Assembly (NCBI GenBank): GCA_949878575.1
Contig: CATLAX010000002.1
Coordinates: forward strand, 65,378-129,377
Origin: an uncultured Alphaproteobacteria bacterium
Lineage (GTDB): Bacteria; Pseudomonadota; Alphaproteobacteria; Rs-D84
DNA length: 64,000 nt
Direction: 5' to 3'
Shown: positions 21,996 to 48,006 of the stretch, piece after piece
Layout: every line of letters starts with the position of its first letter
How positions within the stretch are numbered: position 1 is the stretch's first letter
Notes under the pieces: model-generated
What the model saw: the letters and a program-made list of their open reading frames with translations, nothing else
Databases searched by the model: none
What the model was told of the DNA's origin: nothing
Translations under genes and position numbers: made by a program

Positions 21996-22088
21996 AAGGC
22001 CTCCTTGGGTGCGTTGCCAGAATTATATCACAAACACCTTTTATCACGCCAGTATTATAATAAAAAAGCCGCCATGCGGCGGCGGCAA

Positions 22089-22352
22089 CTATGACTGTAC
22101 GGGGGCCGTATTCATACCGGCATCATTCTTGGGGAAAAATTTCAGGAAATCATCCAACGACGTTCCTGTGGATTCAAGTATTTTTGCCAGACTGTGCGTT
22201 GACGGCCAGCGGGGTTTGCCGTAACTGGTCCAGCGCTTGCTTTTATTAAACGTTGTTGCATCCAGCCCACTTTTCTTTGCCAGACCGGAACACGATAAAT
22301 TTAAACTTTGGGCAAAACTGTCTATGGCATGCCATAAATCCAAATGGTTCAT
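22089..22352 (-). CDS. XRE-family helix-turn-helix transcriptional regulator (putative)
   Basis: 87 aa from MNHLDLW. The stretch LSCSGLAKKSGLDATTFNKSKR is an HTH-like pattern. RBS aaagggaggg lies 8 nt upstream. Divergent from the multi-HTH gene. Confidence 0.5.
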   Translation of the reverse strand: MNHLDLWHAIDSFAQSLNLSCSGLAKKSGLDATTFNKSKRWTSYGKPRWPSTHSLAKILESTGTSLDDFLKFFPKNDAGMNTAPVQS

Positions 22353-22385
22353 TTTTATTCCCTCCCTTTGAAGTTCGCAAAACAC

Positions 22386-22601
22386 ACCGGATTATCAGGA
22401 TTAAATTCCCTTATTGATTGAATTCTTACACAAATTCTATTATTTTTCAATCAGAAAAATATCCTATTTTGCTTTTTGGCACGGGAAAAAATGAACTTAT
22501 TGTCTATTATTATACAAACAACCCCAAAAAACAATATAAATCATTGCTATTTTATGCCTTCAGCAATTATAATTATTCCAAATACAAATAAAGGACACAA
22601 T
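22386..22601. promoter_or_regulatory. AT-rich divergent intergenic region (probable divergent promoters/operators)
   Basis: 216 bp between the divergently transcribed XRE-like gene and the tandem-HTH gene. Markedly AT-rich, with no coding signal. Confidence 0.3.
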
Positions 22602-23627
22602 ATGCCCGCAAAGGTTCCGGAAGAAAAGAAAATAGAAGTCTTAACATATGCAAAGGAAAACGGCGTCGTCCAGGCTTCACGGCACTATAAAATAAAGCAT
22701 GCCACCATCGTTCGCTGGAACAAACAGCTGCACATATATGAACCCCAGACCGCATCATATCCCCTATCCAAACGAACAGAGATTCTAAATTATGCCGCAA
22801 AACACGGTGTCCGTGCGGCCGCACGCCAGTTTAAAGTTGCAACCCACAGCATAGAAATATGGAACAGCGAATTAAAGATATACGGTTCTTTTATCAGAAA
22901 ATTTTCAAAGGAACAAAAAATAGAGATATTGCAATACGCACGCGACTATGGCGTCATTGCCGCCGCGGACAAATATGATGTTTCGCCCGCAACCATTATT
23001 TCATGGAACGGCAAACTGCACGTGTATCAGCTTAAAAAACCGTATACAAATGATGAAAAAATTAAGATTTTAACATTTGCCCGTGACAACGGCATGACCG
23101 CGGCGGAACAAAAATTTGACCTGCCGTCAACAACAATACTACGCTGGAACAAAGAATTCCATATCTATACACCGCAAAAACCGGCGGACTATAAAAAATG
23201 CACAAAAGAAGAGAAAATACAAATTTTAAAACACGCAAAAATGCTCTATGACAAGATGCCGGCGGATTCTCGCTCCGCCCACCAGGCGTTTATCCTGGTG
23301 GCGGCGGAATACAACGTTACACAGGATCAGGTGCGAAAATGGAATAAAAAATATCCAACAGTGCCTTTGCGCGCCCAAAGAAAGATTCCTGTCACACGCG
23401 AACTTATTGAAGAGGCGCAATCGGCATTAATATCGGCCCGAGGACACATTACACGCGCATCACGCCAATCCGGCATCAGCGAAAATATGCTGAACAAAAT
23501 GAAGAAAGACAAAAAAATTAAATTTGACAAAGGCCAAAGAAAAATTAAAACATATCCGCCCGTCGGCCCCAGAAAAGCCCGCATAATAAGCGGCATTATC
23601 GCCGCACTGCAAAAGAGCAAAGAATAA
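22602..23627 (+). CDS. Tandem-repeat DNA-binding protein: five transposase (IS3 OrfA)-type HTH modules plus C-terminal Fis-type HTH
   Basis: Five consecutive 45-aa repeats of the form (E/K)xK(I)x(I)LxYAxxxG...T(I)xxWNxxLxxY, resembling the IS3/IS911 OrfA HTH. The C-terminus LIEEAQSALISARGHITRASRQSGISENMLNKMKK matches the Fis/NtrC HTH_8 pattern. Start at the ATG at 22602, RBS aaaggacacaat. Confidence 0.6.
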   Translation: MPAKVPEEKKIEVLTYAKENGVVQASRHYKIKHATIVRWNKQLHIYEPQTASYPLSKRTEILNYAAKHGVRAAARQFKVATHSIEIWNSELKIYGSFIRKFSKEQKIEILQYARDYGVIAAADKYDVSPATIISWNGKLHVYQLKKPYTNDEKIKILTFARDNGMTAAEQKFDLPSTTILRWNKEFHIYTPQKPADYKKCTKEEKIQILKHAKMLYDKMPADSRSAHQAFILVAAEYNVTQDQVRKWNKKYPTVPLRAQRKIPVTRELIEEAQSALISARGHITRASRQSGISENMLNKMKKDKKIKFDKGQRKIKTYPPVGPRKARIISGIIAALQKSKE

Positions 23628-23690
23628 GGCTTGCTTTTTTTGTCCAGTTATAGAATTCTTTCACAAGAGGGAAAATCAAGGAATTTTATC

Positions 23691-24350
23691 ATGAAAAAAA
23701 TATTTGCCGCAATATTCGCCATAATGCCCGTTTCCGGTCTGTATGCAAACGATTATGGCCAATATGATGAATATGACGATTACGTTGTCGCCGAGGCCCC
23801 AGAATGCCCGATATGCGAATGCGGCTGCGGCGACGATCGCAGCAACTATGTCGGATTTCGCGTTTACAAGAACGAGCATGCCGCATATTCATACAACCTG
23901 TCAAATGGTCATAAAAACAAGTACAAGAAAGATAATTTCGGATTCGGCACGACCGTTGGAAACAATTTAACAGACTGGCTGCGGGTGGAATATGAAACGC
24001 TGTACATGGGGGCGGAATACACAAAACGGGACACTGATTTTGAATACGACATTTGGGCAAACATGCTAAACGCGTATTTGCTGCGCGATTTTGAAGGCGT
24101 TGTTGCACCGTATGTCGGCGCAGGCATCGGCCTGACCGGAATATGGGGTGAAATAAACGGTGATTTGGACAATGCATTTGACCTGTCGTACCAGGCAATG
24201 GCCGGCGTCCTGTTTAAATTAAACCGGCGCATTGATTTGGATGTCGGATTTAAATACGTCAATTTTGGCAAGGTTGAACACCACCACGGCGCAACAAAGG
24301 TTGACGCAACCCAGATATATGTCGGCGGCACATACAAATTCGGATTGTAA
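23691..24350 (+). CDS. Outer-membrane beta-barrel protein (OmpA-like/Opa-like 8-strand barrel family)
   Basis: Signal peptide MKKIFAAIFAIMPVSGLYA. Alternating aromatic strands, YVGAGIGL and C-terminal ...GGTYKFGL. Start chosen at the MKKIF internal Met. Confidence 0.55.
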   Translation: MKKIFAAIFAIMPVSGLYANDYGQYDEYDDYVVAEAPECPICECGCGDDRSNYVGFRVYKNEHAAYSYNLSNGHKNKYKKDNFGFGTTVGNNLTDWLRVEYETLYMGAEYTKRDTDFEYDIWANMLNAYLLRDFEGVVAPYVGAGIGLTGIWGEINGDLDNAFDLSYQAMAGVLFKLNRRIDLDVGFKYVNFGKVEHHHGATKVDATQIYVGGTYKFGL

Positions 24351-24365
24351 GTATTTTTAATAAGA

Positions 24366-24393
24366 ACAAAAACCGCCCATAGGGCGGTTTTTG
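24366..24393. terminator. Bidirectional rho-independent terminator
   Basis: Hairpin aaaaccgccc-ata-gggcggtttt. Confidence 0.6.
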
Positions 24394-24448
24394 CACCACA
24401 TACAATAAATATGACCAGGTCAGAATTATTCCAGCGTTTAAGGCCTTA

Positions 24449-24937
24449 CTATTTTTCGCGTTCCGGACGACCAAATATGGCCTTATTACCCTTGTCACCC
24501 GATAACTGGCGCGAATATTCAGCAATTTCCTGCTGAATGGCGGTTCGTGTCAAAATCAGCTCATGTCGCTGTTCCGGATTCAACGTATCGGATTTCAGTT
24601 CCGCCTCCACCTGCGCCAAAACATTGCGCGCATATGTCAAATCTTGTTGCAGTTGTTTTTGATTCCGCCCATTATCCTTTATGCCTTTAACCTTAGCCGC
24701 ATAAGAATCTATTTCTTTTTGTATTTCCGACTTTGTTTGTATCAACTGGTGGCGCTCTTCGGGATTTAAGGTATCTGATTGCAATTCCGCCTCTACCTCT
24801 GCCAACGCATTACGCGCATATTCAATTTTTGCCGTCGCATCTTCATCGGATGATTTGTCAAGCGAATATTTTGCCCCCATCAGCCCCAATATCGCGATAC
24901 CAGACACCAACACTATTTTTTTTATCCGTTTCTTCAT
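24449..24937 (-). CDS. Membrane-anchored/secreted protein with two 50-aa internal repeats, hypothetical
   Basis: N-terminal TM/signal segment. The motif EYARNALAEVEAELQSDTLNPEERHQLIQTKSEIQKEI occurs twice. The repeat is also visible at the nucleotide level (about 24540-24640 vs 24730-24830). Confidence 0.5.
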   Translation of the reverse strand: MKKRIKKIVLVSGIAILGLMGAKYSLDKSSDEDATAKIEYARNALAEVEAELQSDTLNPEERHQLIQTKSEIQKEIDSYAAKVKGIKDNGRNQKQLQQDLTYARNVLAQVEAELKSDTLNPEQRHELILTRTAIQQEIAEYSRQLSGDKGNKAIFGRPEREK

Positions 24938-24938
24938 A

Positions 24939-25874
24939 TTATTTTCCTTTTATCTTTTGTACCAGCTTTTTATAAGAATCTATAAATTTGTTAACAAATA
25001 CAAACTTGGTTGCATCTGCATACTTCCAACGCCTATTAGAAATAATACTTCTTCCCGCCACATGAACACCATATAGATACCATTTATTGCCATAATTGAC
25101 AAATACAGGGTCACCAGAATCACCTCCCCACGTCTGACATCCGTGCATCATATCCCCCGCTGTTATCGTATCTACAACACATTTCGACATTTTTAAGCGG
25201 TTTGTATCACGGAAAGTATTTGCCGAAACACCCGGGACCAATCCTTCCCCTACCTGGTTAACAAATTGTCTCCCTTTACTTTTGCGGGCGTTAAAATCTT
25301 CGGCCTTTTTATTACTTTTAATAAATTTGGCATATTCACGTCTTAACGTGTTTATTTCCTGGTCGCTTAGTATCTTCAAGGCGCCATATCCGACAGCCTG
25401 GGCAAATGTACCCATGCCGGGCACCCCAAAAAAGATAGCCCTAATTTCACTTGATGTAAAGCTTTTCACACGAATATTTGAACGAACACTGCGTGATGGA
25501 ACCAACAAAGCCCAATCTGATTTTGCCCCACCTGTAGAATCATATTCCCCATCCGGATAAATATTTTTATCGGAAGCAGATGTTTTTGCTATTGTCATAT
25601 TACCATGGTTCGCAGAATTCAACCTAATCCTTCTTAGATTCCTTTTGCCGCTTTCGTCATAAATACAATGCTTTGCCGTTACAACAATACCATCAGCGGT
25701 CAATGTTCCCGTACAAAAATTCCGACCGTTTTGTTGCAGGCCTATTACCGCAGAATACGGTTCTGAGGAACGGCTTACATATTGACGCTTATCAATAGTG
25801 TACGTTGCAGCGCTGGCCGACCCGTACATACATACCGTGGCAACAGTTACCAAAAGCATGCAATATTTTTTCAT
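24939..25874 (-). CDS. Secreted trypsin-like (S1 family) serine protease
   Basis: Signal peptide. Catalytic His in VTAKHC, Asp in DWALLV, Ser in GDSGDPVF. Confidence 0.75.
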   Translation of the reverse strand: MKKYCMLLVTVATVCMYGSASAATYTIDKRQYVSRSSEPYSAVIGLQQNGRNFCTGTLTADGIVVTAKHCIYDESGKRNLRRIRLNSANHGNMTIAKTSASDKNIYPDGEYDSTGGAKSDWALLVPSRSVRSNIRVKSFTSSEIRAIFFGVPGMGTFAQAVGYGALKILSDQEINTLRREYAKFIKSNKKAEDFNARKSKGRQFVNQVGEGLVPGVSANTFRDTNRLKMSKCVVDTITAGDMMHGCQTWGGDSGDPVFVNYGNKWYLYGVHVAGRSIISNRRWKYADATKFVFVNKFIDSYKKLVQKIKGK

Positions 25875-25892
25875 TGAATACCCAGCGCCTCC

Positions 25893-26804
25893 TCACACTC
25901 TTCCGCCACAGCTGAAGCTTTTTTTTATAACGGATATTTGGGTTGCATTAAATATAGTCGCAGTTGCACTGGCCGCAGAGGTTCCGACAGCCAACACATT
26001 TGATGCCCGGTTCAGATTTTTTGCCTTTTCGCGACCCTGGTCTGTCGCATCCGTGCGAACATTATCTGTATTTGCAACCGCGCTGGTAACCGTGCCGGCC
26101 GCCCCCAGTGTCGCACCGACAATTGACGACCACATCGCCCCATCGGCCCGATTGTCAATCTTTGACAAATCAACCGTGTCATACTGACCACAGGCGGACA
26201 CAGCATTGTCCACATAACTTAAATCCGTCATATTGTCGTTCATATGTTCCTGCATTCGCTGTCTTTGTAACATACCAGTTGCAGCTATACAGTCATCAAC
26301 CGCCCCATGTAAATCATTTTTGGCCTTGTTATTACCAGCAATAACCGCACCTGCCACGTTTGTCGCAGTACTGCCCGCCATCAGCCCAGTGCGCCAATTA
26401 CCCAGATTTTTTGATTCTTTTTGCATTTCCAGCAGTTCTGCTATTTTGCTCATGGTTGGTAAAACATCTTCAAAGAAACTCTCGTCACTCATTGCCTCTA
26501 TTGCTTCGGCATCACAATACCCTTTGCCGCATAATTCTAGCGACAATTCCTCTATTTCTGCATCCAACGACTCTTTTGAAAAACCGACAACCGCCGCCCC
26601 GGCACCCGCCGCAGTTCCCACACCGGTCACAGCCGTATTTATTCCCGCCATTGTTTTCATGTGATTAAATTCAGCCGCAATACCACCACAACTTTGGCGA
26701 GCGTTAAAAATAGCCTGCTCTAGTTCTGGTGAATATGCATTAGCATGCGAAGTATAAAAAAACACCGCCACCACAATAAATATTATACGAAAATTATGAT
26801 ACAT
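25893..26804 (-). CDS. Secreted Ala/Gly/Thr-rich hypothetical protein
   Basis: 303 aa with signal peptide MYHNFRIIFIVVAVFFYTSHANA. Low-complexity A/G/T-rich regions. No recognisable domain. Confidence 0.4.
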   Translation of the reverse strand: MYHNFRIIFIVVAVFFYTSHANAYSPELEQAIFNARQSCGGIAAEFNHMKTMAGINTAVTGVGTAAGAGAAVVGFSKESLDAEIEELSLELCGKGYCDAEAIEAMSDESFFEDVLPTMSKIAELLEMQKESKNLGNWRTGLMAGSTATNVAGAVIAGNNKAKNDLHGAVDDCIAATGMLQRQRMQEHMNDNMTDLSYVDNAVSACGQYDTVDLSKIDNRADGAMWSSIVGATLGAAGTVTSAVANTDNVRTDATDQGREKAKNLNRASNVLAVGTSAASATATIFNATQISVIKKSFSCGGRV

Positions 26805-26876
26805 TATATATTAAATTGTATCACAATAAGCCTAATTGCTCAACTTTTTTTTGAACCGGATTATATTACTGCCATA

Positions 26877-26922
26877 ACAAAAAACCGTCCCAGTGGGACG
26901 GTTTGTAAATCTTGGACTGGCT
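26877..26922. repeat. Distal copy of 45-bp att-like direct repeat (terminator hairpin + partial tRNA-Asn 3' end)
   Basis: aaaaaaccgtcccagtgggacggtttgtaaatcttggactgg matches 27841-27884 with about 5 differences. Confidence 0.55.
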
Positions 26923-26958
26923 CAGCTTGCGATTATTGACCGAAATGTCCAGAAAAAT

Positions 26959-27687
26959 TTAACGACTTGATTTATTTTTTACATTTTCTATGAATGCTTG
27001 TTTTGCCAAGTTTTCAGTCAAACCAGATGCGCACACTGTGTTGTTGCTGTGTGCAGCCGCGACAAAAAAATGCTGTCGGTAAAATTGATTGCTTTTCATA
27101 TCCGGCAGCTGAACCCGAAACATATCTATACCTTTATCCCGCCACACATCATGAACAATCGCAACATAACTATAAGGTTCGTACGTCAAGACGTCTTGAA
27201 TATTTGAAAATTCTTCGTCTTCTGGATTAACCCAACAGTTACCTTTCAGCATCCAAAAACCAGCAAATTGCATAGAGGATTCGCCATATGGTTTATTGAA
27301 ATACTGAATTTTGTACCGTTTACCCAAATGATATAGGGTTTGTAAATTAATCAATCCTTGAAACTGGCTATGATTGAAAAAAGTCACATTATCGGGCATT
27401 GTTATTTTTCGCACCAACCATTTCATATAATATTGCGTTTTGTTACCATAGTTATATGGCAAATTATAACAATGCAACATCCGCTCAATATTATATTTTG
27501 TAATTTTGTTTACAGACTTATCAAGGATTAAATGCTCAAACTCTTCTGGATTATGACTGCCAAATATGTTGCCCAGGAAAATTTGCGCCTCCTCCGTTTC
27601 CCACGAATCTTTGGTTTTATTAATATCCTGTTCAATTTGTTGAACCAAAGGGTGGTTTATGATTTCACCAGATTTATTTTTGAACAC
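26959..27687 (-). CDS. Low-GC ORFan, hypothetical protein (cargo of tRNA-Asn islet)
   Basis: 242 aa in a strongly AT-rich gene. No recognisable motifs. Lies between the 45-bp direct repeats downstream of the tRNA-Asn 3' end. Confidence 0.45.
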   Translation of the reverse strand: MFKNKSGEIINHPLVQQIEQDINKTKDSWETEEAQIFLGNIFGSHNPEEFEHLILDKSVNKITKYNIERMLHCYNLPYNYGNKTQYYMKWLVRKITMPDNVTFFNHSQFQGLINLQTLYHLGKRYKIQYFNKPYGESSMQFAGFWMLKGNCWVNPEDEEFSNIQDVLTYEPYSYVAIVHDVWRDKGIDMFRVQLPDMKSNQFYRQHFFVAAAHSNNTVCASGLTENLAKQAFIENVKNKSSR

Positions 27688-27840
27688 GTTGGTATCCTTT
27701 TAGTAATTACGATCATACGACACAGACTATACCAAGCTCAATCGTTGTCAATATTTTTCGGCGATTATTCGATAATTATCAAAAAATCACGATTTTAATT
27801 CAGAAATTATCAAACCATGCGCGGGCATTGCAAAACCAAT

Positions 27841-27884
27841 AAAAAACCGCCCCGGTGGGGGCGGCTTGTAAATCTTGGCTCGGG
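27841..27884. repeat. Proximal copy of att-like direct repeat overlapping tRNA-Asn 3' end
   Basis: aaaaaaccgccccggtgggggcggcttgtaaatcttggctcgg. Confidence 0.55.
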
Positions 27885-27951
27885 ATGCTGGACTCGAACC
27901 AGCGACATACGGATTAACAGTCCGTTGTTCTACCGACTGAACTAATCCCGA
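27876..27951 (-). tRNA. tRNA-Asn (anticodon GTT)
   Basis: Hand-folded: U1:A72 acceptor (typical of bacterial tRNA-Asn), anticodon loop CUGUUAA, T-loop GGTTCGAGTCC, CCA encoded. Confidence 0.8.
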
Positions 27952-40337: not shown

Positions 40338-40413
40338 GGGGACATAGCTCAGTTGGTAGAGCAAATGACTTTTAATCATTGGGTCCAGGGTTCGAGTCCC
40401 TGTGTCCCCACCA
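40338..40413 (+). tRNA. tRNA-Lys (anticodon TTT)
   Basis: GGGGACATAGCTCAGTTGGTAGAGC... with anticodon loop CUUUUAA and GGTTCGAGTCC T-loop. CCA encoded. Confidence 0.9.
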
Positions 40414-40421
40414 GAATAAAA
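40398..40421 (+). repeat. attL core (direct repeat, overlaps tRNA-Lys 3' end)
   Basis: Exact 24-bp match to 47470-47493. Confidence 0.8.
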
Positions 40422-40548
40422 TTGTTAGAAATCCAACACTTTTGTTGGGTTTTTATTTTTTTGGTTTGAACCACACGAAACACACCAAAGCCTTAGAAAT
40501 CCAACATTTTCGTATTTTCACTTTTGCCAGAAACAAAGGGATACAGAT

Positions 40549-42114
40549 ATGGCAAAAACGTGTAATACAAGGTGTAATACAGACCACAATATATTATTGC
40601 GAAACAACATTTTTTATTATAGGGTTGAATTACCACGAGAAAACGGTAAAAGACGGTTCTTGTGCAAGTCTTTAAAGACATATAATTACTATGAAGCACG
40701 GGAAAAGGCTAAAATTATGGCTGAACAACTGCAAAATTTTGAAGTGCACGAATTCATTAAATCCATAGAATTATTGTGGAATCAGTTAAGTTTTGGCTAC
40801 GAATACCCAAATTTTGGTAAAAATATTTATGGTTTTATGCCGAATACCCCCATACGAACCATTTTGCCAGATTCTAGACCAGAAATTATCAATGGTCTGT
40901 TAGAAAAAGCAGATAAATTAAACCTGATTAAAAATAAGTCTTTGTCTGCACACGAAAAATCCGTTATAAAATTACTGAAAGAAAACAAAGAAAAACTGAT
41001 AGAATTGCAAGAAGATAATAATAAATTATTGGATAAAAATAACCGATTACTTGAAATGCTAATTTCTCATCAGGCCGCGAACACCGTGGCACAACAACCA
41101 AAAGTTGTTAAACATACGGTCGGGGAAATTTTGACATCTATGGTAAAGACGGCAAATAATGAAAAAGCCGAATCCGACCGAAAATATCCTGCAATAAAAA
41201 AACTTATTCAAGATGTCGGACTCGGGCTTGATTCTGATTATATGGATTTTTACAAACCGGAAATCATGCATAAAATTGGAGATTCTGTCCGTAATATGCC
41301 CAATGTAAAAAGTGGCACACAGCGAAAATACATCCAATATGTTATCCAGTTGATAAAGCACGCCCATATTTTGGAACCTGATACATATAAAGAAAATCTG
41401 ATACAAATATTACCAAAATTTGAAAAGACACCGAAATCTCAACAGAAACCGCACATGCCGTATACTGACGACCAGTTGTCGGAAATGTTTGACCCAAAAC
41501 ACGACTTTTTCAAAAAGAATCCCGACCAATTCTGGACAGCAATGATTGCATTGTTTACGGGTTCACGACAAAATGCCGCAATGACCCTGCAATATGGGGA
41601 CGTGCTTAAAAAAGATGGTTTGGATTGTATCCATTTTACTGAAAATCACTCCATTAAACACCTTAAAACAGAAGCCTCTGAACGTATTGTCCCGATAGCA
41701 CAACAATTCTTAAATTTGGGATTTGTAGAATATGTGCGGAACAGACAGGCAAAATTAAAGGCAGCAGATACAGATTTTATATTTCCGAAATGTCAAACCA
41801 GTGGTGGACAGGAAAATAATAAATTTGCAACCCGTGGAATATTAAAATTCTTGTCGGATATTGATATTAAAGATAAAAACGGGGATAAACAGGATTTTCA
41901 TTCTTTCCGTAAAAATGCCAGTTTAAGACTGCAAAAAGTGGGAGTTTTACCAACCTTTATCAATGACATTATTGGTTGGGAAGGCAAAAGCACAATGGAA
42001 CAATCCTATTCCAATCACAGATTACCCGAAATCAAGGAACAGGTGGATAAATTAAACTATGATTTCCTGCAACCGCATTTTGACAAGTGGAAAGAAATAA
42101 TGAAAGGGGTATAA
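40549..42114 (+). CDS. Tyrosine-type site-specific integrase (phage integrase family)
   Basis: C-terminal catalytic signature R...HSFRK...Y (HSFRKNASLRL; ...EQSYSNHRL). Located immediately 3' of the tRNA. The true start may be an internal Met (e.g. MAEQLQ). Confidence 0.8.
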   Translation: MAKTCNTRCNTDHNILLRNNIFYYRVELPRENGKRRFLCKSLKTYNYYEAREKAKIMAEQLQNFEVHEFIKSIELLWNQLSFGYEYPNFGKNIYGFMPNTPIRTILPDSRPEIINGLLEKADKLNLIKNKSLSAHEKSVIKLLKENKEKLIELQEDNNKLLDKNNRLLEMLISHQAANTVAQQPKVVKHTVGEILTSMVKTANNEKAESDRKYPAIKKLIQDVGLGLDSDYMDFYKPEIMHKIGDSVRNMPNVKSGTQRKYIQYVIQLIKHAHILEPDTYKENLIQILPKFEKTPKSQQKPHMPYTDDQLSEMFDPKHDFFKKNPDQFWTAMIALFTGSRQNAAMTLQYGDVLKKDGLDCIHFTENHSIKHLKTEASERIVPIAQQFLNLGFVEYVRNRQAKLKAADTDFIFPKCQTSGGQENNKFATRGILKFLSDIDIKDKNGDKQDFHSFRKNASLRLQKVGVLPTFINDIIGWEGKSTMEQSYSNHRLPEIKEQVDKLNYDFLQPHFDKWKEIMKGV

Positions 42115-42421
42115 CAATATCCCTTTTTTTTCGGTTTACATTTTATAATCCATTAAATATAATAGGTTTTGAATCAGTGGGGACACTGGTTCGGGGTCAT
42201 CTCAGGCCTAGTATGTTCGGTGCAAAACATAGAATACATCGTGATTCCGATTTCCTATGTTTTGACGTCGTTATTATCCCTGACTGTTATAGTCGGGGAG
42301 CTGTTGGTTATAAAACACGGTTTTTCCGAAAGACCAATGGGGTCAATAACATACTGATTTGAGAACTCCCCGACCGCTAGTGTTCTGCTAGTGGTCTAAT
42401 TTTTATACAAAGGGGAAAAAT

Positions 42422-42943
42422 ATGTTTCTTGTTTTGGCTTTGATATATTTCTTGCCAACAATAATCGCAATATGCAGAAAGTGCAATATTGGGCTTACGT
42501 TATTGGTAAACTTGTTCCTGGGGTGGACATGTATAGGTTGGATTGTTGCGTTGGTTCTGGCATTAAAAGGTACTGAATCCGTCCGAAATCAACCAACCAT
42601 TGTGATAAACAATACAAATGCCGATGGAAATGCAAAAATTCAACAAGACGTGAGAAATATAGCCCAAGACAAATACGCAGATAAAACAGAAAAAAGCATG
42701 CGTGGTGCAAGTCCATTAGCTGTTGGAATATGGTCTGCAATATTGGGAATATTTGGTTTAGCGTGGATTGGAACATTTGACCCAACAATGGGTTTTATCG
42801 CATTACTGGGGTTGGCTGGTTTGGGCTTTGAGGCTTGGGAATGGCTAAAAGTAAAATTTAACGATTCCATTGAACAAGCCGCACAAAAGAAGTCTCAAGA
42901 ACTCAAACAACAATTAAATAAAAAAGGAGCAAAAAATGACTGA
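42422..42943 (+). CDS. Superinfection-immunity (Imm)-like membrane protein
   Basis: The N-terminal YFLPTIIA...NLFLGWTCIGWIVALVLAL matches the Imm_superinfect family pattern. Additional C-terminal TM helices. Confidence 0.45.
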   Translation: MFLVLALIYFLPTIIAICRKCNIGLTLLVNLFLGWTCIGWIVALVLALKGTESVRNQPTIVINNTNADGNAKIQQDVRNIAQDKYADKTEKSMRGASPLAVGIWSAILGIFGLAWIGTFDPTMGFIALLGLAGLGFEAWEWLKVKFNDSIEQAAQKKSQELKQQLNKKGAKND

Positions 42944-43403
42944 AAACAAACCAACAAATATAGCCTTTAATAAAACAATTCTGTATTTTATGGCTATAGG
43001 CTGTATTCTTGTCGCACTGGTTTTATTTTTTAATAGAAACAATGCCGAGTTAAACATGGGAAGCAGTCTTATTTTTTATATAATTTGGGGTTGTATACTA
43101 TTATTTGGATTTGGTGGATTTAAACTGCTGTATAAAACATTTGGTGATAACCAACCTGCAATAGAATTCAATCCAAAAGGAATGATAATACACAGTTTGC
43201 AAAACGAAAAGTTGAACAAATATGTTTTATGGAAAGATGTTGCCGACATAGAAATGGGAGCAAATGGTAAAATCCGTATAAAATATAAAGATACCAACTT
43301 AGACGCAGAGGAAATAACATCGTATTTGTTCAATATCCCCAAACAGGAATTATTCAAAGTTTTATATTCGTATGCAAAACAGTATGGGGATATAAAAAAC
43401 TAA
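42936..43403 (+). CDS. Hypothetical 2-TM membrane protein (island cargo)
   Basis: 155 aa with two N-terminal TM helices and a cytoplasmic domain. Overlaps the preceding gene (ATGA coupling). RBS aaaaggagcaaaaaATG. Confidence 0.45.
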   Translation: MTENKPTNIAFNKTILYFMAIGCILVALVLFFNRNNAELNMGSSLIFYIIWGCILLFGFGGFKLLYKTFGDNQPAIEFNPKGMIIHSLQNEKLNKYVLWKDVADIEMGANGKIRIKYKDTNLDAEEITSYLFNIPKQELFKVLYSYAKQYGDIKN

Positions 43404-43429
43404 GCATATTATAAACAAAGGAGAAAAAT

Positions 43430-43858
43430 ATGTATACAAATAATGCAGCAAAATCAAATTCTGTAATAGGCTGGTTGGCAGCATTCGGATATATTATTGG
43501 TTATGTCCTGCTTTTATTTATAGGCCAAGCCGCTACTTGGATTAGTGTAATTTTATGTGTAGTAGACCGTCAAACCTTAAAAACATACGGTAAACATATT
43601 GCATTGGGTTGGTGTTTGTTACCACCTGTTTATATGTATAAACGTGCCAAAGTGTTGAATGATGGTTTTACAAAATTCTGGGTAAATTTAATAACCGCAA
43701 TCATATTCATTATATTAGCAGTTTATGCCGTGGTTCATACGACATCTTGTATGACGCAAGCATTGCCGTATTTTAATAATAATCACGAAATTGCAGCCCA
43801 GTTCTGTCAATGCACATTGGGTAATTCACCAGAAGAATGTTTGCGAAATTTGTTATAA
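43430..43858 (+). CDS. Hypothetical membrane protein (island cargo)
   Basis: 142 aa with three hydrophobic segments. RBS aaggagaaaaatATG. Confidence 0.45.
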   Translation: MYTNNAAKSNSVIGWLAAFGYIIGYVLLLFIGQAATWISVILCVVDRQTLKTYGKHIALGWCLLPPVYMYKRAKVLNDGFTKFWVNLITAIIFIILAVYAVVHTTSCMTQALPYFNNNHEIAAQFCQCTLGNSPEECLRNLL

Positions 43859-43949
43859 CCAATGTAAGGCAGATGTAAATCTGCCTTTTAAATACTCATT
43901 TTTACCTGGGCGACTGCCATTTGACGAATATATAATTGTATAAAACAAG

Positions 43950-44147
43950 GTGGCAAAAATGAAAATTGCATACGCTAAACAGTCTGGGAATATGGTAAGT
44001 CTTTATGACCCGAATAACCGTGAATATGTCCGTATATCTGGTGAACTGGTGTCTTATACATCTGAATTTGTAATAACCCGTGGCAGTGGGATAAATGGAC
44101 CAAAACACATTTATAATGCCTGTGGTCGGTGGGTTCGTGATATTTAA
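43950..44147 (+). CDS. Small hypothetical protein (island cargo)
   Basis: 65 aa. RBS aaggtggcaaaaATG. Confidence 0.35.
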   Translation: MAKMKIAYAKQSGNMVSLYDPNNREYVRISGELVSYTSEFVITRGSGINGPKHIYNACGRWVRDI

Positions 44148-44650
44148 TGCTGAAATGTCGGCAGGTTGAATAACGTCTCGGAAAATATCAATCTGTCCGT
44201 ATTAAAATGTCCTAGGTTATCCGCCGTGATTTCTTTTGTTATATACCCGTTTAATATATCTGGGGTTCGGTCTATTTCCTGCAAATCAAGAGTCCTGTCG
44301 GTCAATTTTAATTTTTCCGTTATATTATCCAGCGCAGTTTGAATTTCCGTGTCTGTGTATTTTGGAGCCCATAATAACAAATGCAGGTGCCAGACTTTAT
44401 TTGCCCCCAGTTCTGCCGTTCCGACAAAATGCACTGGGTTCCGATTCCAATGACGCCCGACAAGGGATTTTTCAAAATGCCGTATTATTTTATGAAATTT
44501 TGGCAGAGCCCTTTCAAAACTATCCGTATATGCCCCTATCGGTAGTCGGACGGTCAAGAAATGTGAAAATATTTGATTGTTTAACCAGTCTTGCAAGGAT
44601 TCCTGTATTTTCTGGGTTTGTGTCGGGCTGTAATAAGTTATGTTTTTCAT
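44144..44650 (-). CDS. Small rolling-circle replication initiator-like protein (HUH endonuclease motifs)
   Basis: The three ordered RCR motifs are present: FLTVRL (motif I-like), VWHLHLLLW (HUH, motif II) and NGYITKE (YxxK, motif III). Confidence 0.5.
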   Translation of the reverse strand: MKNITYYSPTQTQKIQESLQDWLNNQIFSHFLTVRLPIGAYTDSFERALPKFHKIIRHFEKSLVGRHWNRNPVHFVGTAELGANKVWHLHLLLWAPKYTDTEIQTALDNITEKLKLTDRTLDLQEIDRTPDILNGYITKEITADNLGHFNTDRLIFSETLFNLPTFQH

Positions 44651-45187
44651 TTATTGCTCTTTTTTATTTTAATGAGTCCAGATAAAGCAATTCCCAGTTG
44701 ATAAGGGATTTATATATCTTTATTTTCTCTGCATTCTGGATATAAATTTTTATGGTTAAAATTCATTTATATTTATGTAATCTGGTATAAAACGATACTT
44801 GGCGGAAATTTCGCCATAACGCGAGGTGCCGAAATTCCAGACAAAATCCGTCAATATGGCTATATATGAGCCCACACCAGAGGGATAATGTCGTTAAAAC
44901 ATACCCGAACCCTTACCAGATGGCCTGTCTAGTAAGGGTCGGATATTTTGCACATGCACAATACGAAAAGGCCTTTTTCGTCTGACCCGGGGGAGTATTT
45001 ATTATTTGAGTTCAGAAAGAACCACGATTTTCCCCGTTCTGTATCCCCGGGGCGACGTTTTACCGCTCCGAGGTATATATTAGAACTGTGTTCGTATAAT
45101 TATATTTTTGTGTAAAACTTTTTGTTTTATAAATATTTATAGGGGGAGTATAAATAAAATGGGAAACTGGGAAAGTGGGATTTTCGG

Positions 45188-45214
45188 GTAAAAAAAAGTG
45201 GGGAAATTCCCCAC
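45188..45214 (-). terminator. Rho-independent terminator after helicase gene
   Basis: Perfect palindrome gtggggaa-a-ttccccac followed by a T8 run on the minus strand. Confidence 0.5.
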
Positions 45215-45231
45215 CGTTTTTAATATGTAAT

Positions 45232-47070
45232 TTAATCCGTTGTCGGTAAAAACATTTCTGAAACAAATTTATATAGTCTCGGAGTTCCTTGATATGGCAC
45301 CTGCTTTTTTCGCGCAATATGTGTACCGTCTTTATCTGGCTCAATCCAACCCCATTCTACCAGTTTCTTTTTTGCCCGAGATGTGGGAAACCCTTTCAAA
45401 ATGGTGTTTTCCAAGACTTCTGGATAAACCCAGTAAATACATTTATTCCCAAGTTTACCTTCAAAATATCCGGCCATATCGTATACCTTATCGTCCGTAC
45501 CGCAGTATGTAATGTCCTTGAATTTGGAAAATCCATTACATTCAAAAAATAGCCGTACTTGCCGTTTTAAACGCTCCGTTTCCGTCAGTCGGTCAGGATT
45601 ATCTCGCCATTCATTAAACAGTTGTAAAGCAGCATCTTTTGCAACACCGAACTCCCAACCTGTTATTCCCCAATGGGTTGCCAATTCCCCCGCAAAACCA
45701 ACCAGTGCAAACCGCTTAAACGCCCGATTTTCGGCAGACTCCATATCGGTTGGTAATTTGGCTCGTAATGGCTCAAAGAATCTCTTAAAACTAGCCTGAA
45801 CTTCATCTTTGACAACAACCAAGGATTCCAAAAACTGTACTAATGGAACCCCATAAAATTTTCCAGTGCATTCATTAAGGTGTTCGGCAAATTTTCCCCC
45901 GTTTTCAAAACCGTGCAAATTGTCAAAAATACCGCTGATAGAATTTTGTGATACCGCAGGAATACTGATGAAACGAATTTCCTGCCCGTCCTTAATCGTC
46001 TTTCTAGATTCTGCAATATGGGTTTGAAAATCGATTTCGCCAGATGACAGAAATAAAGTAATCCATTTTTTTACGGCTCGTTTAGTCCACGTATGGTTAA
46101 AACGCCCTTTACCTTGCCCATTTGCAAGCATATACGCAACATTCCCCGTTATGGAACTAGGTAATTGTCCAACTTCGTCCAATACCAACAATGTATCGTT
46201 GTGAGATTCCGCCGTACTTTCTAGTGCATTATCTGTCGTCCGCCAAGAGTGCATATAATCCCTGTTTCCGCATACTGAGGTTGCCACTTTTAGCAAAGTC
46301 GTTTTTCCTGTGGAAGTCCGTCCATAAATATGAAAACCACCACCCTCTATATCACAAAGACGTAGCAAAGGTGCTGCAAAGGCACAACTTACCCCGAAAA
46401 TCAATCTGGAATTCCCAGTACAATACTGACCGATTTGGCTTTTCCATTCGTCCAAAGTTCCTTGGCAGATGTAACCGTTCGCATCGTCTGAATTGAAATA
46501 TAACTTGGCATTCTGCGTTCCTATAATTTTGGTTGGCAGAACGAAATTCTTTTCCGCCCACCCAGTGCGTTTGGTTTCCAAAATGATTTCCTGGGGTTTA
46601 AAATTGGTTATATATTCGCACAAACGGTTTTGTTCACATTTCAAGACGAAAAAGCCTTCCAGTAATAACTCCGATATAACCTCATTACCTCTAGCCAGGG
46701 AGTCCCTTGGTATATACTTTTGGCAGAGTTTGTCTTCAAAATTCTTAAATTCGACCAAAACACCCCACGATTTTGCGTCCTTGGTTTTGGTCAGTTTGGA
46801 CACATTGATATAATTTGAAACCCGACTATACACCACATTATTCGGTCCCTCGCTATCGGGGCTTTCAATTGACTCTACATGGAATAATCCATAATCCCGT
46901 AAGATAAAGCCGCCTGGAGTTCCTGGTAGCTGACGCAAACTTTCCTGTTCAAACTGTTCATAACTTACAGAAAATCTATTTAATTGCTTTAAAAACTCCT
47001 GTTCTTTATCGGACGTTCTGGGGTCATCTTGTGCTTGGTCTAATAAATCTTCAATTTTTGAATCGCTCAT
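45232..47070 (-). CDS. SF3 helicase/primase-associated ATPase (P4/D5-type replicative protein)
   Basis: Walker A GRTSTGKTT, Walker B LLVLDEVGQL, downstream motif C. 612 aa with an N-terminal domain of unknown type. Confidence 0.65.
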   Translation of the reverse strand: MSDSKIEDLLDQAQDDPRTSDKEQEFLKQLNRFSVSYEQFEQESLRQLPGTPGGFILRDYGLFHVESIESPDSEGPNNVVYSRVSNYINVSKLTKTKDAKSWGVLVEFKNFEDKLCQKYIPRDSLARGNEVISELLLEGFFVLKCEQNRLCEYITNFKPQEIILETKRTGWAEKNFVLPTKIIGTQNAKLYFNSDDANGYICQGTLDEWKSQIGQYCTGNSRLIFGVSCAFAAPLLRLCDIEGGGFHIYGRTSTGKTTLLKVATSVCGNRDYMHSWRTTDNALESTAESHNDTLLVLDEVGQLPSSITGNVAYMLANGQGKGRFNHTWTKRAVKKWITLFLSSGEIDFQTHIAESRKTIKDGQEIRFISIPAVSQNSISGIFDNLHGFENGGKFAEHLNECTGKFYGVPLVQFLESLVVVKDEVQASFKRFFEPLRAKLPTDMESAENRAFKRFALVGFAGELATHWGITGWEFGVAKDAALQLFNEWRDNPDRLTETERLKRQVRLFFECNGFSKFKDITYCGTDDKVYDMAGYFEGKLGNKCIYWVYPEVLENTILKGFPTSRAKKKLVEWGWIEPDKDGTHIARKKQVPYQGTPRLYKFVSEMFLPTTD

Positions 47071-47374
47071 TTTATCACCTATATAATTTTAAAAGTTTGC
47101 AAAAAACACGTCCATTTTTTTATAAATGGAAAGTATTTTGCGGTTTAATTTTCGGAAATAGGAGGCCACCCTAATGCCTTACGCAAACACTAACCCCGTT
47201 TTTTTGTGGTCGCAATAAATAAATTTCATTTTTACGAAGAAATTTTCAATTGTTTGAAAAATTCCCGAAATATCAAAGGGTTTATAATAATGCACTTAAC
47301 CGACTCAATGGAAAATAATTTATAAAAATACCCGTTTACATTGTCTGAAAATGGTATACAATAGAATTGCAAAA

Positions 47375-47396
47375 GTGTAATACAAGGTGTAATACA
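47375..47396 (+). repeat. Copy of 22-bp sequence gtgtaatacaaggtgtaataca (also at 40560-40581 at integrase 5' end)
   Basis: Exact 22-bp duplicate, itself an internal direct repeat of gtgtaataca. Confidence 0.6.
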
Positions 47397-47469
47397 TTTT
47401 AACAATTTTGATGGTAGGAATCTGGGAAAAGGTTAAAATCCTAGGGTTTTATAAACTTATGGTTTGTTC

Positions 47470-47493
47470 CCCTGTGTCCCCACCAGAATAAAA
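47470..47493 (+). repeat. attR core (direct repeat of tRNA-Lys 3' end)
   Basis: Exact 24-bp match to 40398-40421. Confidence 0.8.
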
Positions 47494-47536
47494 CACACCG
47501 CATTGCGGTGTTTTTATATGTACAAAGGAATACAAT

Positions 47537-47935
47537 ATGTACAAATACGAATTTAAAAAACGCTGTGCCCAGGTTAAATATACATGGCGGCATAAAATCG
47601 CATTTTTGCGTGTTGAAAAAGGCCTGACCGGACACAATACAATCCGCGGGTATCTGCATGATACGGATAAACTGGTGCTGTATTGGATACCATGGATGTC
47701 AAAGGCCAACGTGCATAAATTTCATCGCGCACATTCGCGCCACCATCTGGAAAACAGCATTAGAAAAAGTTACAAAGACTATGTCGCAATGATAATTGAC
47801 TGGGAATGCGCACGCGCAACAAAACCAGACAAACCGTTGAACGCATATGAAACGCTGATGCGATTTTATCCACAGCATCGCGATGCAATCCTGCCTGTAT
47901 TACAGCGATTGTTGCCGGAACAAATACAGCGATAA
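47537..47935 (+). CDS. Hypothetical protein (possible small HD-motif protein)
   Basis: 132 aa. The H...HD...K spacing in GHNTIRGYLHDTDK gives a weak HD-like motif. RBS aaaggaatacaatATG. Confidence 0.35.
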   Translation: MYKYEFKKRCAQVKYTWRHKIAFLRVEKGLTGHNTIRGYLHDTDKLVLYWIPWMSKANVHKFHRAHSRHHLENSIRKSYKDYVAMIIDWECARATKPDKPLNAYETLMRFYPQHRDAILPVLQRLLPEQIQR

Positions 47936-48006
47936 CGACACATTTTTTATATTGAACGACGACATCAAATGAATATAATCCGTATAAATTTATACGGAGA
48001 ATTTAT

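What the first reader, a model, noticed from the sequence alone, without database searches (positions are those of the whole stretch)
26877..27951. Degenerate 1 kb islet at tRNA-Asn: 45-bp direct repeat flanking a single low-GC ORFan
The tRNA-Asn 3' end plus its downstream terminator hairpin (aaaaaaccgccccggtgggggcggcttgtaaatcttggctcgg, 27841-27884) has a second, slightly diverged copy at 26877-26922. The roughly 950 bp between the copies is strongly AT-rich and holds one 242-aa ORF with no recognisable homology. This is the footprint of a tRNA-targeted integration event whose integrase has since been lost, leaving a single cargo gene.
Basis: seen in the sequence. Interest (0 to 1): 0.5.

Follow-up and report, generated by a model that had tools for sequence, protein, structure and literature searches.

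The report
Integrase-less one-gene islet at tRNA-Asn
A 1-kb, low-GC, single-gene insert sits beside a tRNA-Asn gene between two copies of the tRNA's tail and terminator; it looks like a stripped-down member of a family of serine-recombinase mobile elements that stack gene cassettes at this tRNA in uncultured gut Alphaproteobacteria.

Summary
The last 9 nt of tRNA-Asn, an 8-nt linker and a GC-hairpin terminator occur at 27838-27884 and again, slightly diverged, at 26876-26922. The ~960 bp between holds one 35%-GC gene for a 242-aa protein.

The interpretation, a tRNA-targeted integration scar without an integrase, is largely right but too narrow. Each copy is part of a conserved ~160-nt module: a 45-nt left arm, the tRNA 3' end, linker and terminator, then a right arm with a 50-bp inverted repeat (GGTTCGATAAT...ATTATCGAAC). 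In related metagenome-assembled genomes (MAGs) this module separates up to about eight cassettes downstream of tRNA-Asn, always co-oriented with the tRNA and at one locus per genome. Cargo includes McrBC, a Type ISP restriction enzyme and many genes with no known relatives.

In sister species with the same fabI-ligA flank, an intact large serine recombinase (LSR) element fills the slot. It shows the same order: tRNA, terminator, inverted repeat, then the recombinase 3' end.

The window's unit is best read as an LSR-less miniature of that family. It is ancient, fixed in its species and under purifying selection (dN/dS about 0.18). The ORF's function, the crossover point and current mobility are unknown. 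It is a new variant of a known kind, of moderate interest.

The parts
27876..27951 (-). tRNA-Asn (GTT), the integration target. Its last 9 nt, CCCGAGCCA (27876-27884), are the part repeated distally.
   Evidence: ARAGORN; Rfam tRNA model, 73.6 bits.
27838..27884 (-). Proximal core copy (attL-like): tRNA 3' end, 8-nt linker AGATTTAC and the GC-hairpin terminator of the tRNA, followed by a T-run.
   Evidence: the repeat finder D1/D2. Terminator scan places the stem at 27867-27844. Fold energy -24.5 kcal/mol, z = -4.7. Matches module model positions 40-163 together with the right arm.
27766..27837 (-). Right arm of the module: a GC-rich spacer plus a 50-bp inverted repeat (27767-27816), GGTTTGATAATT-N27-AATTATCGAAT. 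In relatives it is the arm that abuts the 3' end of a large serine recombinase gene.
   Evidence: nhmmer hit 27889-27766 to model positions 40-163, E = 1.7e-24. The repeat arms are at least 90% conserved across 23 copies, while the interior is 40-60% conserved. The same arm lies next to the recombinase in L038, L039, L043, L045 and L048.
27688..27765 (-). Cassette-specific 5' region. It holds promoter-like sites (TTGAGC-N18-TATGAT at 27741-27712; extended -10 TGGTATAGT at 27734-27726) and the ribosome-binding site AAAGGA (27700-27695) ahead of the GTG start codon.
   Evidence: Promoter scan and direct reading of the sequence. Homology to L011 breaks at 27768, which marks the cassette boundary.
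26959..27687 (-). The 242-aa ORF, the only cargo gene. It has no detectable relatives outside its own small cluster, is low in GC, and is under purifying selection. Function unknown.
   Evidence: ORF list. Five homologues at 68-88% identity only. No other cluster among 1.84e9 representatives. No family or PDB hit. dN/dS 0.17-0.19. AlphaFold2 pLDDT 46, too low to use.
26921..26965 (-). Left arm of the module (P-arm-like). It begins at the ORF stop codon and contains a third TC(G/A)ATAAT motif (CGGTCAATAATCGCAAGCTGAG).
   Evidence: nhmmer hit 26965-26868 to model positions 2-98, E = 1.8e-15. Aligned with 20 other left arms. Not significantly similar to the tRNA 3' half.
26876..26920 (-). Distal core copy (attR-like): a decayed tRNA 3' end CCAGTCCA (26913-26920), the linker, and a GC-hairpin terminator that now terminates the ORF. 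No inverted repeat follows it.
   Evidence: the repeat finder D1/D2. Terminator scan places the stem at 26904-26882. Fold energy -22.7 kcal/mol, z = -4.2.

Best explanation
The interval 26876-27884 is a miniature, recombinase-less member of a family of site-specific integrative elements that target the 3' end of tRNA-Asn.

**Autonomous members.** They carry a large serine recombinase (LSR) gene that reads toward the tRNA. The arm next to the tRNA consists of the tRNA's last ~9 nt, a short linker, a GC-hairpin terminator and a conserved 50-bp inverted repeat. Their far arm is inferred to be the conserved 45-nt 'left arm'.

**How arrays form (inferred).** Insertion rebuilds an intact, terminated tRNA. 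Because the target is regenerated, further insertions pile up as arrays of cassettes separated by full ~160-nt modules.

**The window.** Only one unit is present: right arm, own promoter, the 242-aa ORF, left arm, then the displaced tRNA tail and terminator. The two terminator copies are both in use, one ending the tRNA transcript and one ending the ORF transcript.

**History and status.** The unit was acquired before the split of at least four to six related species and is now fixed in this one. If it moves at all, it needs an LSR supplied in trans.

**Shown:** the repeat, the module family, the arrays, the replacement of cargo between conserved flanks, and the recombinase-bearing relatives at the same site.
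**Inferred:** that the recombinase acts on these modules, the crossover position (within the last ~9 nt of the tRNA or the linker/terminator), and the function of the inverted repeat.
**Weak inference:** the ORF's role may be defence-related, by analogy with neighbouring cargo.
For: 1. **The repeat is real and non-random, and both copies are terminators**.
2. **The two copies belong to a ~160-nt module.**
   - It occurs 3 times in L005 (78-81% identity to the reference copy), 10 times in the contig shared by L004 and L027, and 2-6 times in L009, L011, L013, L015, L017, L020 and L029.
   - Every copy is co-oriented with tRNA-Asn and lies downstream of it.
3. **It is confined to one locus per genome.** The core pattern gave a single stretch in each of 9 species genomes. 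Eight of these are gut-type MAGs where it lies beside a complete or partial tRNA-Asn.
4. **Same flanks, different cargo.**
   - L011 is 82% identical in nucleotides across fabI-tRNA but carries another ~800-bp cassette. Homology breaks exactly at the module ends, 27768 and 26961.
   - The same ORF is the first cassette in the window and L007, the third in L005 and about the fifth in L004.
   - L010 and L017 have the tRNA and terminator with no arms, as expected of unoccupied sites.
5. **A parallel system at tRNA-Gly.** There the module carries the tRNA-Gly 3' end (CTGCCCGCACCA) in place of the tRNA-Asn end. The tRNA-derived piece therefore tracks the local target.
6. **A recombinase is linked to the arm.** In L015, L038, L039, L043, L045/L046 and L048/L049, an LSR (Resolvase + Recombinase + Zn_ribbon_recom domains) lies just beyond the inverted repeat.
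   - The order is always tRNA-Asn, linker, hairpin, repeat, LSR 3' end.
   - L045 and L048 share the window's fabI-ligA flank.
   - The same layout occurs in a distant lineage, L031 and L033.
   - L035 retains only the LSR 3' remnant.
7. **Array ends fit a crossover near the tRNA.** Eight distal modules (window, L007, L009, L011, L015, L004, L029, L020) end just after the terminator, with no inverted repeat beyond it. This argues against a crossover inside the repeat.
8. **The cargo is a real gene of foreign composition**.
9. **Published precedent.** Dehalococcoides has tandem islands at ssrA, with a serine recombinase gene overlapping attL and integrase-less units interpreted as cis-mobilizable elements (PMC3146451). 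The definition of cis-mobilizable elements is in PMC6323972.
Against: - No recombinase of this family lies in the 64-kb window. tblastn with the L015 LSR and two tyrosine integrases found nothing there, and the rest of the genome could not be searched.
- No excised circle, empty-site allele or within-species polymorphism was seen. All 24 contigs read for this species have the same arrangement.
- The far end (attR) of an intact LSR element was never captured. The link between the left arm and LSR elements is therefore indirect.
- Large serine recombinases normally need only ~40-50-bp sites. The role of a separate, highly conserved inverted repeat 55-100 nt from the tRNA is unexplained.
- Arrays contain irregular units: modules with only a left part or only a right part, and reversed genes. 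These need extra deletions or rearrangements to explain.
- Tyrosine-integrase islands also use this tRNA, at the anticodon loop. The locus is a general hotspot, and some module parts could be scars of other element families.
Confidence: 0.6

Rival explanations
1. The unit was never autonomous. It is one cassette of an integron-like platform in which single-gene cassettes, each carrying a full ~160-nt attP-like module, are captured and shuffled in trans by a recombinase encoded elsewhere.
For: - Arrays hold up to about eight short cassettes, mostly one gene each with its own promoter.
- The same ORF occupies different array positions in different species.
- The glycoside hydrolase GH108 cassette is shared by L004 and L015 in different surroundings.
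- The module arms are conserved far better than the cargo.
- The TCGATAAT motif occurs three times per module.
Against: - No recombinase is fixed next to the array start; fabI is there instead.
- No circular forms or strain-level cassette turnover were seen.
- Canonical integron features are absent.
- Differences in array position can also arise from successive insertions at the tRNA plus deletions.
Confidence: 0.2
2. The modules are now only portable homology. Cassette gain, loss and replacement proceed by homologous recombination between ~160-nt repeats, after transformation or gene-transfer-agent delivery, and not by site-specific recombination.
For: - Cargo replacement between window and L011 is bounded exactly by the conserved modules.
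- The repeats are 75-90% identical and co-oriented, which allows deletion or exchange.
- Irregular half-modules look like products of unequal recombination.
Against: - This does not explain why every module contains the tail of the local tRNA (Asn or Gly), nor why arrays are anchored at that tRNA.
- It does not explain the recombinase-bearing relatives with the same arm.
- 160 nt at about 80% identity is a poor substrate for RecA.
Confidence: 0.13
3. There was no mobile origin. The tRNA terminator region was duplicated locally and kept because it supplies a terminator for a gene that arose or was inserted beside the tRNA.
For: Both copies are working-quality terminators with a compensatory stem change. 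The locus is fixed in the species.
Against: - The duplicated block is embedded in left and right arms shared with dozens of copies in other species and with recombinase elements.
- The cargo has foreign composition.
- Related species have other cargo between the same flanks.
Confidence: 0.04
4. The 45-bp similarity belongs to a REP-like family of terminator repeats dispersed around the genome.
For: The module is indeed a multi-copy family containing a terminator.
Against: - Only two copies occur in the 64-kb window. The next-best model hits have E = 0.04.
- The core pattern hit one 8-kb stretch per genome across 185,579 species genomes. In the eight related MAGs it lay beside a whole or partial tRNA-Asn.
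- All copies are co-oriented with the tRNA.
Confidence: 0.03

Closest known systems
[quoted passage not shown]
   Same: - Tandem islands lie downstream of a tRNA-like gene, each bounded by a direct repeat of the gene's 3' end.
- A large serine recombinase gene on the reverse strand abuts attL, and its open reading frame runs into the RNA gene.
- A conserved motif lies just upstream of each repeat that does not match the RNA gene.
- Some units lack the integration module and were interpreted as cis-mobilizable.
   Different: - The target here is tRNA-Asn (and tRNA-Gly in a parallel lineage), not tmRNA.
- The repeated block includes the terminator plus a conserved 50-bp inverted repeat.
- Units can be as small as one gene (~1 kb).
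- The hosts are uncultured gut Alphaproteobacteria and at least one distant lineage.
- The recombinases were not tested for relatedness to DsiB.
Cis-mobilizable elements (CIMEs) and tandem accretion, as defined for the ICESt1/ICEberg elements (PMC6323972)
   Same: The element is flanked by attL- and attR-like sites but has no integration or transfer genes. It sits in tandem with related elements at one attachment site.
   Different: CIMEs were defined beside ICEs with tyrosine integrases and are usually several kb long. Here the partners are LSR elements, the units are single genes, and mobilisation has not been observed.
Chromosomal integron cassette arrays (IntI / attI / attC)
   Same: Arrays of short cassettes, mostly of unknown function or defence-related, are separated by a conserved repeat with dyad symmetry. 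Cassette order differs between relatives.
   Different: - There is no IntI-type tyrosine recombinase next to the array.
- The repeat contains a tRNA 3' end and a terminator.
- The inverted repeat reads GTTCGAT...ATCGAAC, the opposite order to the attC R''/R' cores (RYYYAAC...GTTRRRY).
- Cassettes carry their own promoters.
tRNA/tmRNA-linked defence islands with direct repeats (asn-tDNA islands of Klebsiella, PMC4891358; tmRNA islands of Pseudomonas, PMC12595487)
   Same: Integration is at the 3' end of a tRNA or tmRNA gene, with short direct repeats of that end, low-GC cargo rich in phage-defence genes, and no transfer genes.
   Different: Those elements are 10-60 kb and carry their own tyrosine integrase. 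The window's unit is 1 kb and integrase-less, and its relatives use a serine recombinase.

Membership tests
tRNA-targeted integrated element (genomic islet) | Lies immediately 3' of a tRNA gene | tested here: met
   The unit starts inside the last 9 nt of tRNA-Asn, 27876-27884.
tRNA-targeted integrated element (genomic islet) | Direct repeat of the tRNA 3' end at the far boundary | tested here: met
   CCAGTCCA, linker and terminator at 26876-26920 against CCCGAGCCA, linker and terminator at 27838-27884. Identity is 86-90% and none of 100 shuffles matched.
tRNA-targeted integrated element (genomic islet) | Composition differs from the host | tested here: met
   35.4% GC against 47.2% for the window. 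GC3 is 0.36 against 0.51-0.61 for housekeeping genes.
tRNA-targeted integrated element (genomic islet) | Related genomes have the site empty or differently occupied | tested here: met
   L010 has the tRNA and terminator without arms. L011 has a different cassette. L045 and L048 have a serine recombinase element.
tRNA-targeted integrated element (genomic islet) | Integrase encoded within the element | tested here: not met
   The single ORF has no recombinase signature. No homologue of the LSR or tyrosine integrases lies near it.
Cis-mobilizable element (CIME) | Retains attL and attR but lacks recombination and transfer genes | tested here: met
   Both core copies and both arms are present, with one non-recombinase gene between them. 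Definition from PMC6323972.
Cis-mobilizable element (CIME) | Can be excised or mobilised by a related element's recombinase | not testable with these tools
   Needs junction PCR, read mining or a recombination assay. No polymorphism was seen among 24 contigs.
LSR-driven tRNA/tmRNA island (ssrA-GI-like) | Large serine recombinase gene on the reverse strand abutting attL | tested here: not met
   Absent from the window. Present in relatives L015, L038, L039, L043, L045, L048, L031 and L033 with the same arm.
LSR-driven tRNA/tmRNA island (ssrA-GI-like) | The arm next to the tRNA is homologous to that of recombinase-bearing members | tested here: met
   The window's linker, hairpin, spacer and GGTTTGATAATT...AATTATCGAAT follow the same order as in L045 and L048, which share the same host locus.
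Integron cassette / attC | IntI integrase and attI adjacent to the array | tested here: not met
   fabI and ligA flank the tRNA. No tyrosine recombinase lies within 10 kb on either side.
Integron cassette / attC | attC with R'' (RYYYAAC) ... R' (GTTRRRY) cores in that order | tested here: not met
   The inverted repeat reads GTTCGAT...ATCGAAC on both strands. The comparison with the attC consensus rests on my own knowledge.
REP/BIME-like dispersed repeat | Many copies scattered at unrelated intergenic loci | tested here: not met
   Two copies occur in 64 kb. One locus per genome in 9 species genomes. The rest of this genome was not available.

The most novel reading that the evidence does not exclude
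The ~160-nt module is a complete, portable attachment site. Together with a trans-acting large serine recombinase it would form an integron-like gene-capture platform anchored at a tRNA gene. Single-gene cassettes, many defence-related, would be inserted, stacked and reshuffled at tRNA-Asn, and at tRNA-Gly in another lineage. The 50-bp inverted repeat GGTTCGATAAT...ATTATCGAAC, conserved across phyla, would be the recognition or control element.
Probability: 0.25. Interest if true: 0.75.

Novelty: new variant of a known kind. Interest (0 to 1): 0.5.

Why it matters
Taken alone, the window shows an ordinary fossil of integration at a tRNA gene. The comparison with relatives adds three things.

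- **A compact cassette-stacking system.** It lies at tRNA-Asn in poorly known, uncultured gut Alphaproteobacteria, with cargo enriched in restriction and defence genes and in genes with no known relatives.
- **Serine recombinases at tRNA genes.** A family of large serine recombinases targets tRNA genes with a distinctive arm. Enzymes of this class are sought as genome-engineering tools, and here both natural target and donor sites can be read directly from sequence.
- **A conserved inverted repeat.** The 50-bp repeat is kept almost unchanged between distant lineages. It sits in the read-through tail of the recombinase gene, and its function is unknown but testable.

If the single-gene units prove mobile in trans, this would be a second, mechanistically distinct route to integron-like gene capture.

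Tried and rejected
- **Left arm as a decayed tRNA 3' half.** Local alignment scores of 20 left arms against the tRNA were no better than shuffles (mean z = -0.36). tRNA identity in the module is limited to CC(C)GAGCCA. Rejected.
- **Tyrosine integrases as the cognate enzyme.** The Arm-DNA-binding tyrosine integrases of L009 and L012 sit beside partial tRNA halves that start at the anticodon loop. They have their own TTGCTACCAA arm repeats and are only 23% identical to each other. They are separate islands using the same tRNA.
- **Inverted repeat as an integron attC or a dif/Xer site.** Rejected on core order and on the 27-32-nt spacing.
- **Inverted repeat as the crossover site.** Disfavoured, because eight array ends stop at the terminator with no repeat beyond it.
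- **The ORF on phages or plasmids.** tblastn of the ORF and blastn of the module against the phage and plasmid collections gave no match. Two IMG/VR pattern scans also gave no match.
- **Structure route for the ORF.** AlphaFold2 with the 6-sequence alignment gave pLDDT 46, so no fold search was run.
- **Known RNA families.** Rfam found only the tRNA.
- **Literature.** A search for the repeat sequence returned only unrelated primers.
- **Far end of an intact LSR element.** The elements were longer than 10 kb or cut by contig ends.
Full report
**1.

tRNA-Asn(GTT) lies at 27876-27951 on the minus strand. The stretch from its 3' end through its terminator recurs about 960 bp away.
- The repeat finder gives 26876-26897 / 27838-27859 (86% identity) and 26895-26915 / 27858-27878 (90%). 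These form one repeat split by a 1-nt indel in the hairpin loop.
- The repeat extends into the tRNA only as CCCGAGCCA (27876-27884) against CCAGTCCA (26913-26920).
- A degenerate pattern of the repeat matched none of 100 shuffles of the window.
- Both copies are terminator-like on the minus strand and fold far better than shuffles (z = -4.7 and -4.2).
- One stem position differs by a compensatory C-G to T-A change.

The proximal copy therefore ends the tRNA transcript and the distal copy ends the ORF transcript.

**2. The cargo is a real gene of foreign composition.**

The ORF at 26959-27687 (minus strand, 242 aa) is 35.5% GC with GC3 0.36. fabI, ligA and other neighbours are 50-55% GC with GC3 0.51-0.61. 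It has a promoter-like site, a ribosome-binding site and a terminator.
- It has only five homologues, at 68-88% identity and 239-242 aa, all from uncultured Alphaproteobacteria.
- dN/dS is 0.17-0.19.
- Pfam, PADLOC, PHROGs, NCBIfam and PDB sequences give nothing.
- A profile search of 1.84 billion cluster representatives finds only its own cluster.
- The AlphaFold2 model is unusable (pLDDT 46).
- Nothing similar is in the phage or plasmid collections.

Its function is unknown.

**3. The repeat is part of a larger module.**

In L005 (ORF product 69% identical to the window's), a 161-nt unit occurs three times between single-gene cassettes downstream of tRNA-Asn. A model built from four copies finds the following:
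- 10 copies or part-copies in the contig shared by L004 and L027
- 4 in L009, 3 in L011, 3 in L013, 6 in L015
- 2 each in L007, L017 and L029, and 3 in L020

All are co-oriented with the tRNA.

The module has these parts in order:
- a 45-nt left arm (...TCCGGACATTCTGCTCGATAATTGCAAG...)
- CC(C)GAGCCA, the tRNA 3' end
- the linker AG(A/T)TTTAC
- a GC hairpin and T-run
- a GC-rich spacer
- a 50-bp inverted repeat, GGTTCGATAATT-N27-32-TTATCGAAC

The repeat arms are at least 90% conserved across 23 copies, while the interior is 40-60% conserved. In the window, the tRNA-side copy covers model positions 40-163 (27889-27766). The distal copy covers positions 2-98 (26965-26868).

**4. It is locus-specific, not dispersed.**

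The core pattern hit one stretch in each of 9 species genomes out of 185,579 scanned. Eight are gut-type MAGs, where it lies beside a complete or partial tRNA-Asn. The ninth, a Thioclava chromosome, has neither a tRNA nor a module hit and looks like a chance match. In the 64-kb window there are only the two copies. This removes the REP-like alternative.

**5. Comparative evidence for insertion and cassette behaviour.**
- Four related species share the fabI-tRNA-Asn flank at 82-87% nucleotide identity.
  - The window has the ORF followed by species-specific genes.
  - L007 has the same ORF followed by a helicase with a DUF2726 domain.
  - L011 has a different ~800-bp cassette. Homology to the window breaks exactly at the module ends, 27768 and 26961.
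  - L010 has the tRNA and terminator with no arms, followed by other genes.
- The ORF is the first cassette in the window and L007, the third in L005 and about the fifth in L004.
- Other cassettes encode a Type ISP restriction enzyme, McrBC, a NERD nuclease, an HD domain protein, a SpoU methylase, a GH108 lysozyme-like protein, a STAND-like ATPase and many proteins with no family match.
- Within the window's own species the arrangement is invariant in the 24 contigs read. The islet is old and fixed there.

**6. A parallel system at another tRNA.**

A metagenome scan for the inverted repeat recovered it 55-100 nt downstream of tRNA-Asn genes of quite different sequence (L020, L026/L034, L032). 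It also recovered it downstream of tRNA-Gly(TCC) in L028. There the next module carries the tRNA-Gly tail CTGCCCGCACCA instead of the tRNA-Asn tail. The tRNA-derived piece therefore matches the local target, which is the signature of site-specific integration at tRNA genes.

**7. The recombinase.**

Several repeat hits lay inside a reverse-strand ORF. That ORF is a large serine recombinase (LSR) with Resolvase, Recombinase and Zn_ribbon_recom domains. Its reading frame runs through the repeat and the terminator and into the tRNA (L031, L033).
- In the gut alphaproteobacterial lineage, L015 has an LSR 32 nt beyond the repeat of its last module.
- Homologues of that LSR at 51-91% identity were looked up. 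In L038, L039, L043, L045/L046 and L048/L049 the order is always tRNA-Asn, linker, GC hairpin, ~35 nt, repeat, LSR 3' end.
- L045 and L048 have fabI-ligA on the other side of the tRNA, so this is the same chromosomal slot as in the window.
- L035 keeps only the 3' remnant of such a gene beside a displaced tRNA tail.

This layout parallels the DsiB islands at ssrA in Dehalococcoides. Those also form tandem arrays and include integrase-less units interpreted as cis-mobilizable (PMC3146451; definition in PMC6323972).

**8. Model.**

Autonomous elements insert at the extreme 3' end of tRNA-Asn.
- Their tRNA-side arm supplies a new tRNA tail, terminator and inverted repeat.
- Their other arm, the left arm, ends up next to the displaced original tail and terminator.
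- Because an intact tRNA is regenerated, insertions accumulate.

The window's unit has both arms but only a promoter and one ORF between them. It is either a deletion derivative that lost the recombinase or a non-autonomous hitchhiker.

Eight array ends stop just after the terminator, with no inverted repeat following. L010 and L017 lack the repeat altogether. This places the crossover near the tRNA tail, linker or terminator, not inside the repeat. The repeat's own role is unknown. It could bind the recombinase or a directionality factor, or have a regulatory function.

**9. What remains open.**
- No recombinase of this family lies in the window, and the rest of the genome is unknown.
- No circles or empty alleles were seen.
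- The far end of an intact LSR element was not captured.
- Arrays contain irregular half-modules.
- Tyrosine-integrase islands also insert into the same tRNA, at the anticodon loop (L009, L012, L029, L043). The locus is a general hotspot.
- The left arm is not a decayed tRNA half.

**10. Verdict.**

The feature is a fixed, LSR-less miniature of a tRNA-Asn-specific integrative element family that forms cassette arrays. It is a new variant of a known kind (tRNA/tmRNA islands, tandem accretion, cis-mobilizable elements). Interest is moderate. It would be higher if the single-gene units prove mobile in trans.

Noticed in passing
window 40338-48000: A classical integrated element sits at tRNA-Lys (40338-40413, plus strand). 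A 521-aa tyrosine integrase (40549-42114; Phage_integrase + DUF6538) lies directly downstream. It is followed by a superinfection-immunity protein, a Rep-like protein and a DUF927 protein, all in 33-41% GC DNA. No repeat of the tRNA-Lys 3' end was found in the window at up to 3 mismatches.
   Followed up: partly
window 22000-26870: Between the islet and the conserved outer-membrane beta-barrel gene (23631-24350) lie lower-GC, species-specific genes. They are a 303-aa protein with no family match, a trypsin-like protease (weak LmuA hit, E = 4e-7), a 162-aa coiled-coil protein and a 383-aa protein with repeated HTH motifs. They are absent from L005, L007 and L010 and have no module flanks. They may be older cargo whose attachment sites have decayed.
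   Followed up: partly
L026:1006-1057, L032:188-238, L028:416-466 and 1868-1918, L031:6083-6132, L033:6341-6390: The inverted repeat (GC)GGTTCGATAAT...ATTATCGAACC(GC) is kept almost letter for letter next to tRNA-Asn or tRNA-Gly in lineages whose tRNA sequences and terminators differ. In some recombinase genes it coincides with codons GSII...YRT of the read-through tail. Its function is unknown.
   Followed up: partly
L031:5953-7488, L033:6202-7761, L038:10001-11563, L039:10001-11575: These large serine recombinase ORFs have no stop codon of their own before the attachment site. They read through the terminator and into the complementary strand of tRNA-Asn (C-termini ...GLEPATL / ...LDSNQ). 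The same oddity is reported for dsiB at ssrA in Dehalococcoides.
   Followed up: partly
L009:2386-4531, L012:2479-7593, L029:3102-5270, L043:4746-12518: Tyrosine-integrase islands (Phage_integrase, with an arm-DNA-binding domain where tested, in L009 and L012) are inserted in the anticodon loop of the same tRNA-Asn. Each leaves a 45-50-nt partial tRNA upstream of the module array. L009 and L029 show TTGCTACCAA arm repeats. In L043 such an island sits in tandem with an LSR element.
   Followed up: partly
L005:8400-8470, L009:5352-5400, L028 (after each inverted repeat), L029:5380-5440; window 40414-40520: Many modules continue past the inverted repeat with a stem-loop flanked by A and T runs (for example AAAGAGCTGGAAATCCAACCTTTTT), then a short piece resembling the T-arm and acceptor of the local tRNA. 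A similar TTAGAAATCCAAC motif occurs twice just downstream of tRNA-Lys in the window, ahead of its integrase. It may be an arm or scar of another integrase family. A quick regex survey was inconclusive.
   Followed up: partly
L004:1772-9556: In one MAG, two full defence systems occupy cassette positions of the tRNA-Asn array. They are a Type ISP restriction-modification enzyme and McrBC. McrBC lies between a left-half module and a right-half module.
   Followed up: no
window 59799-62111 and 63099-63995: Two minus-strand ORFs (770 aa and 298 aa) are paralogous to each other (BLASTP cluster). They were not examined further.
   Followed up: no
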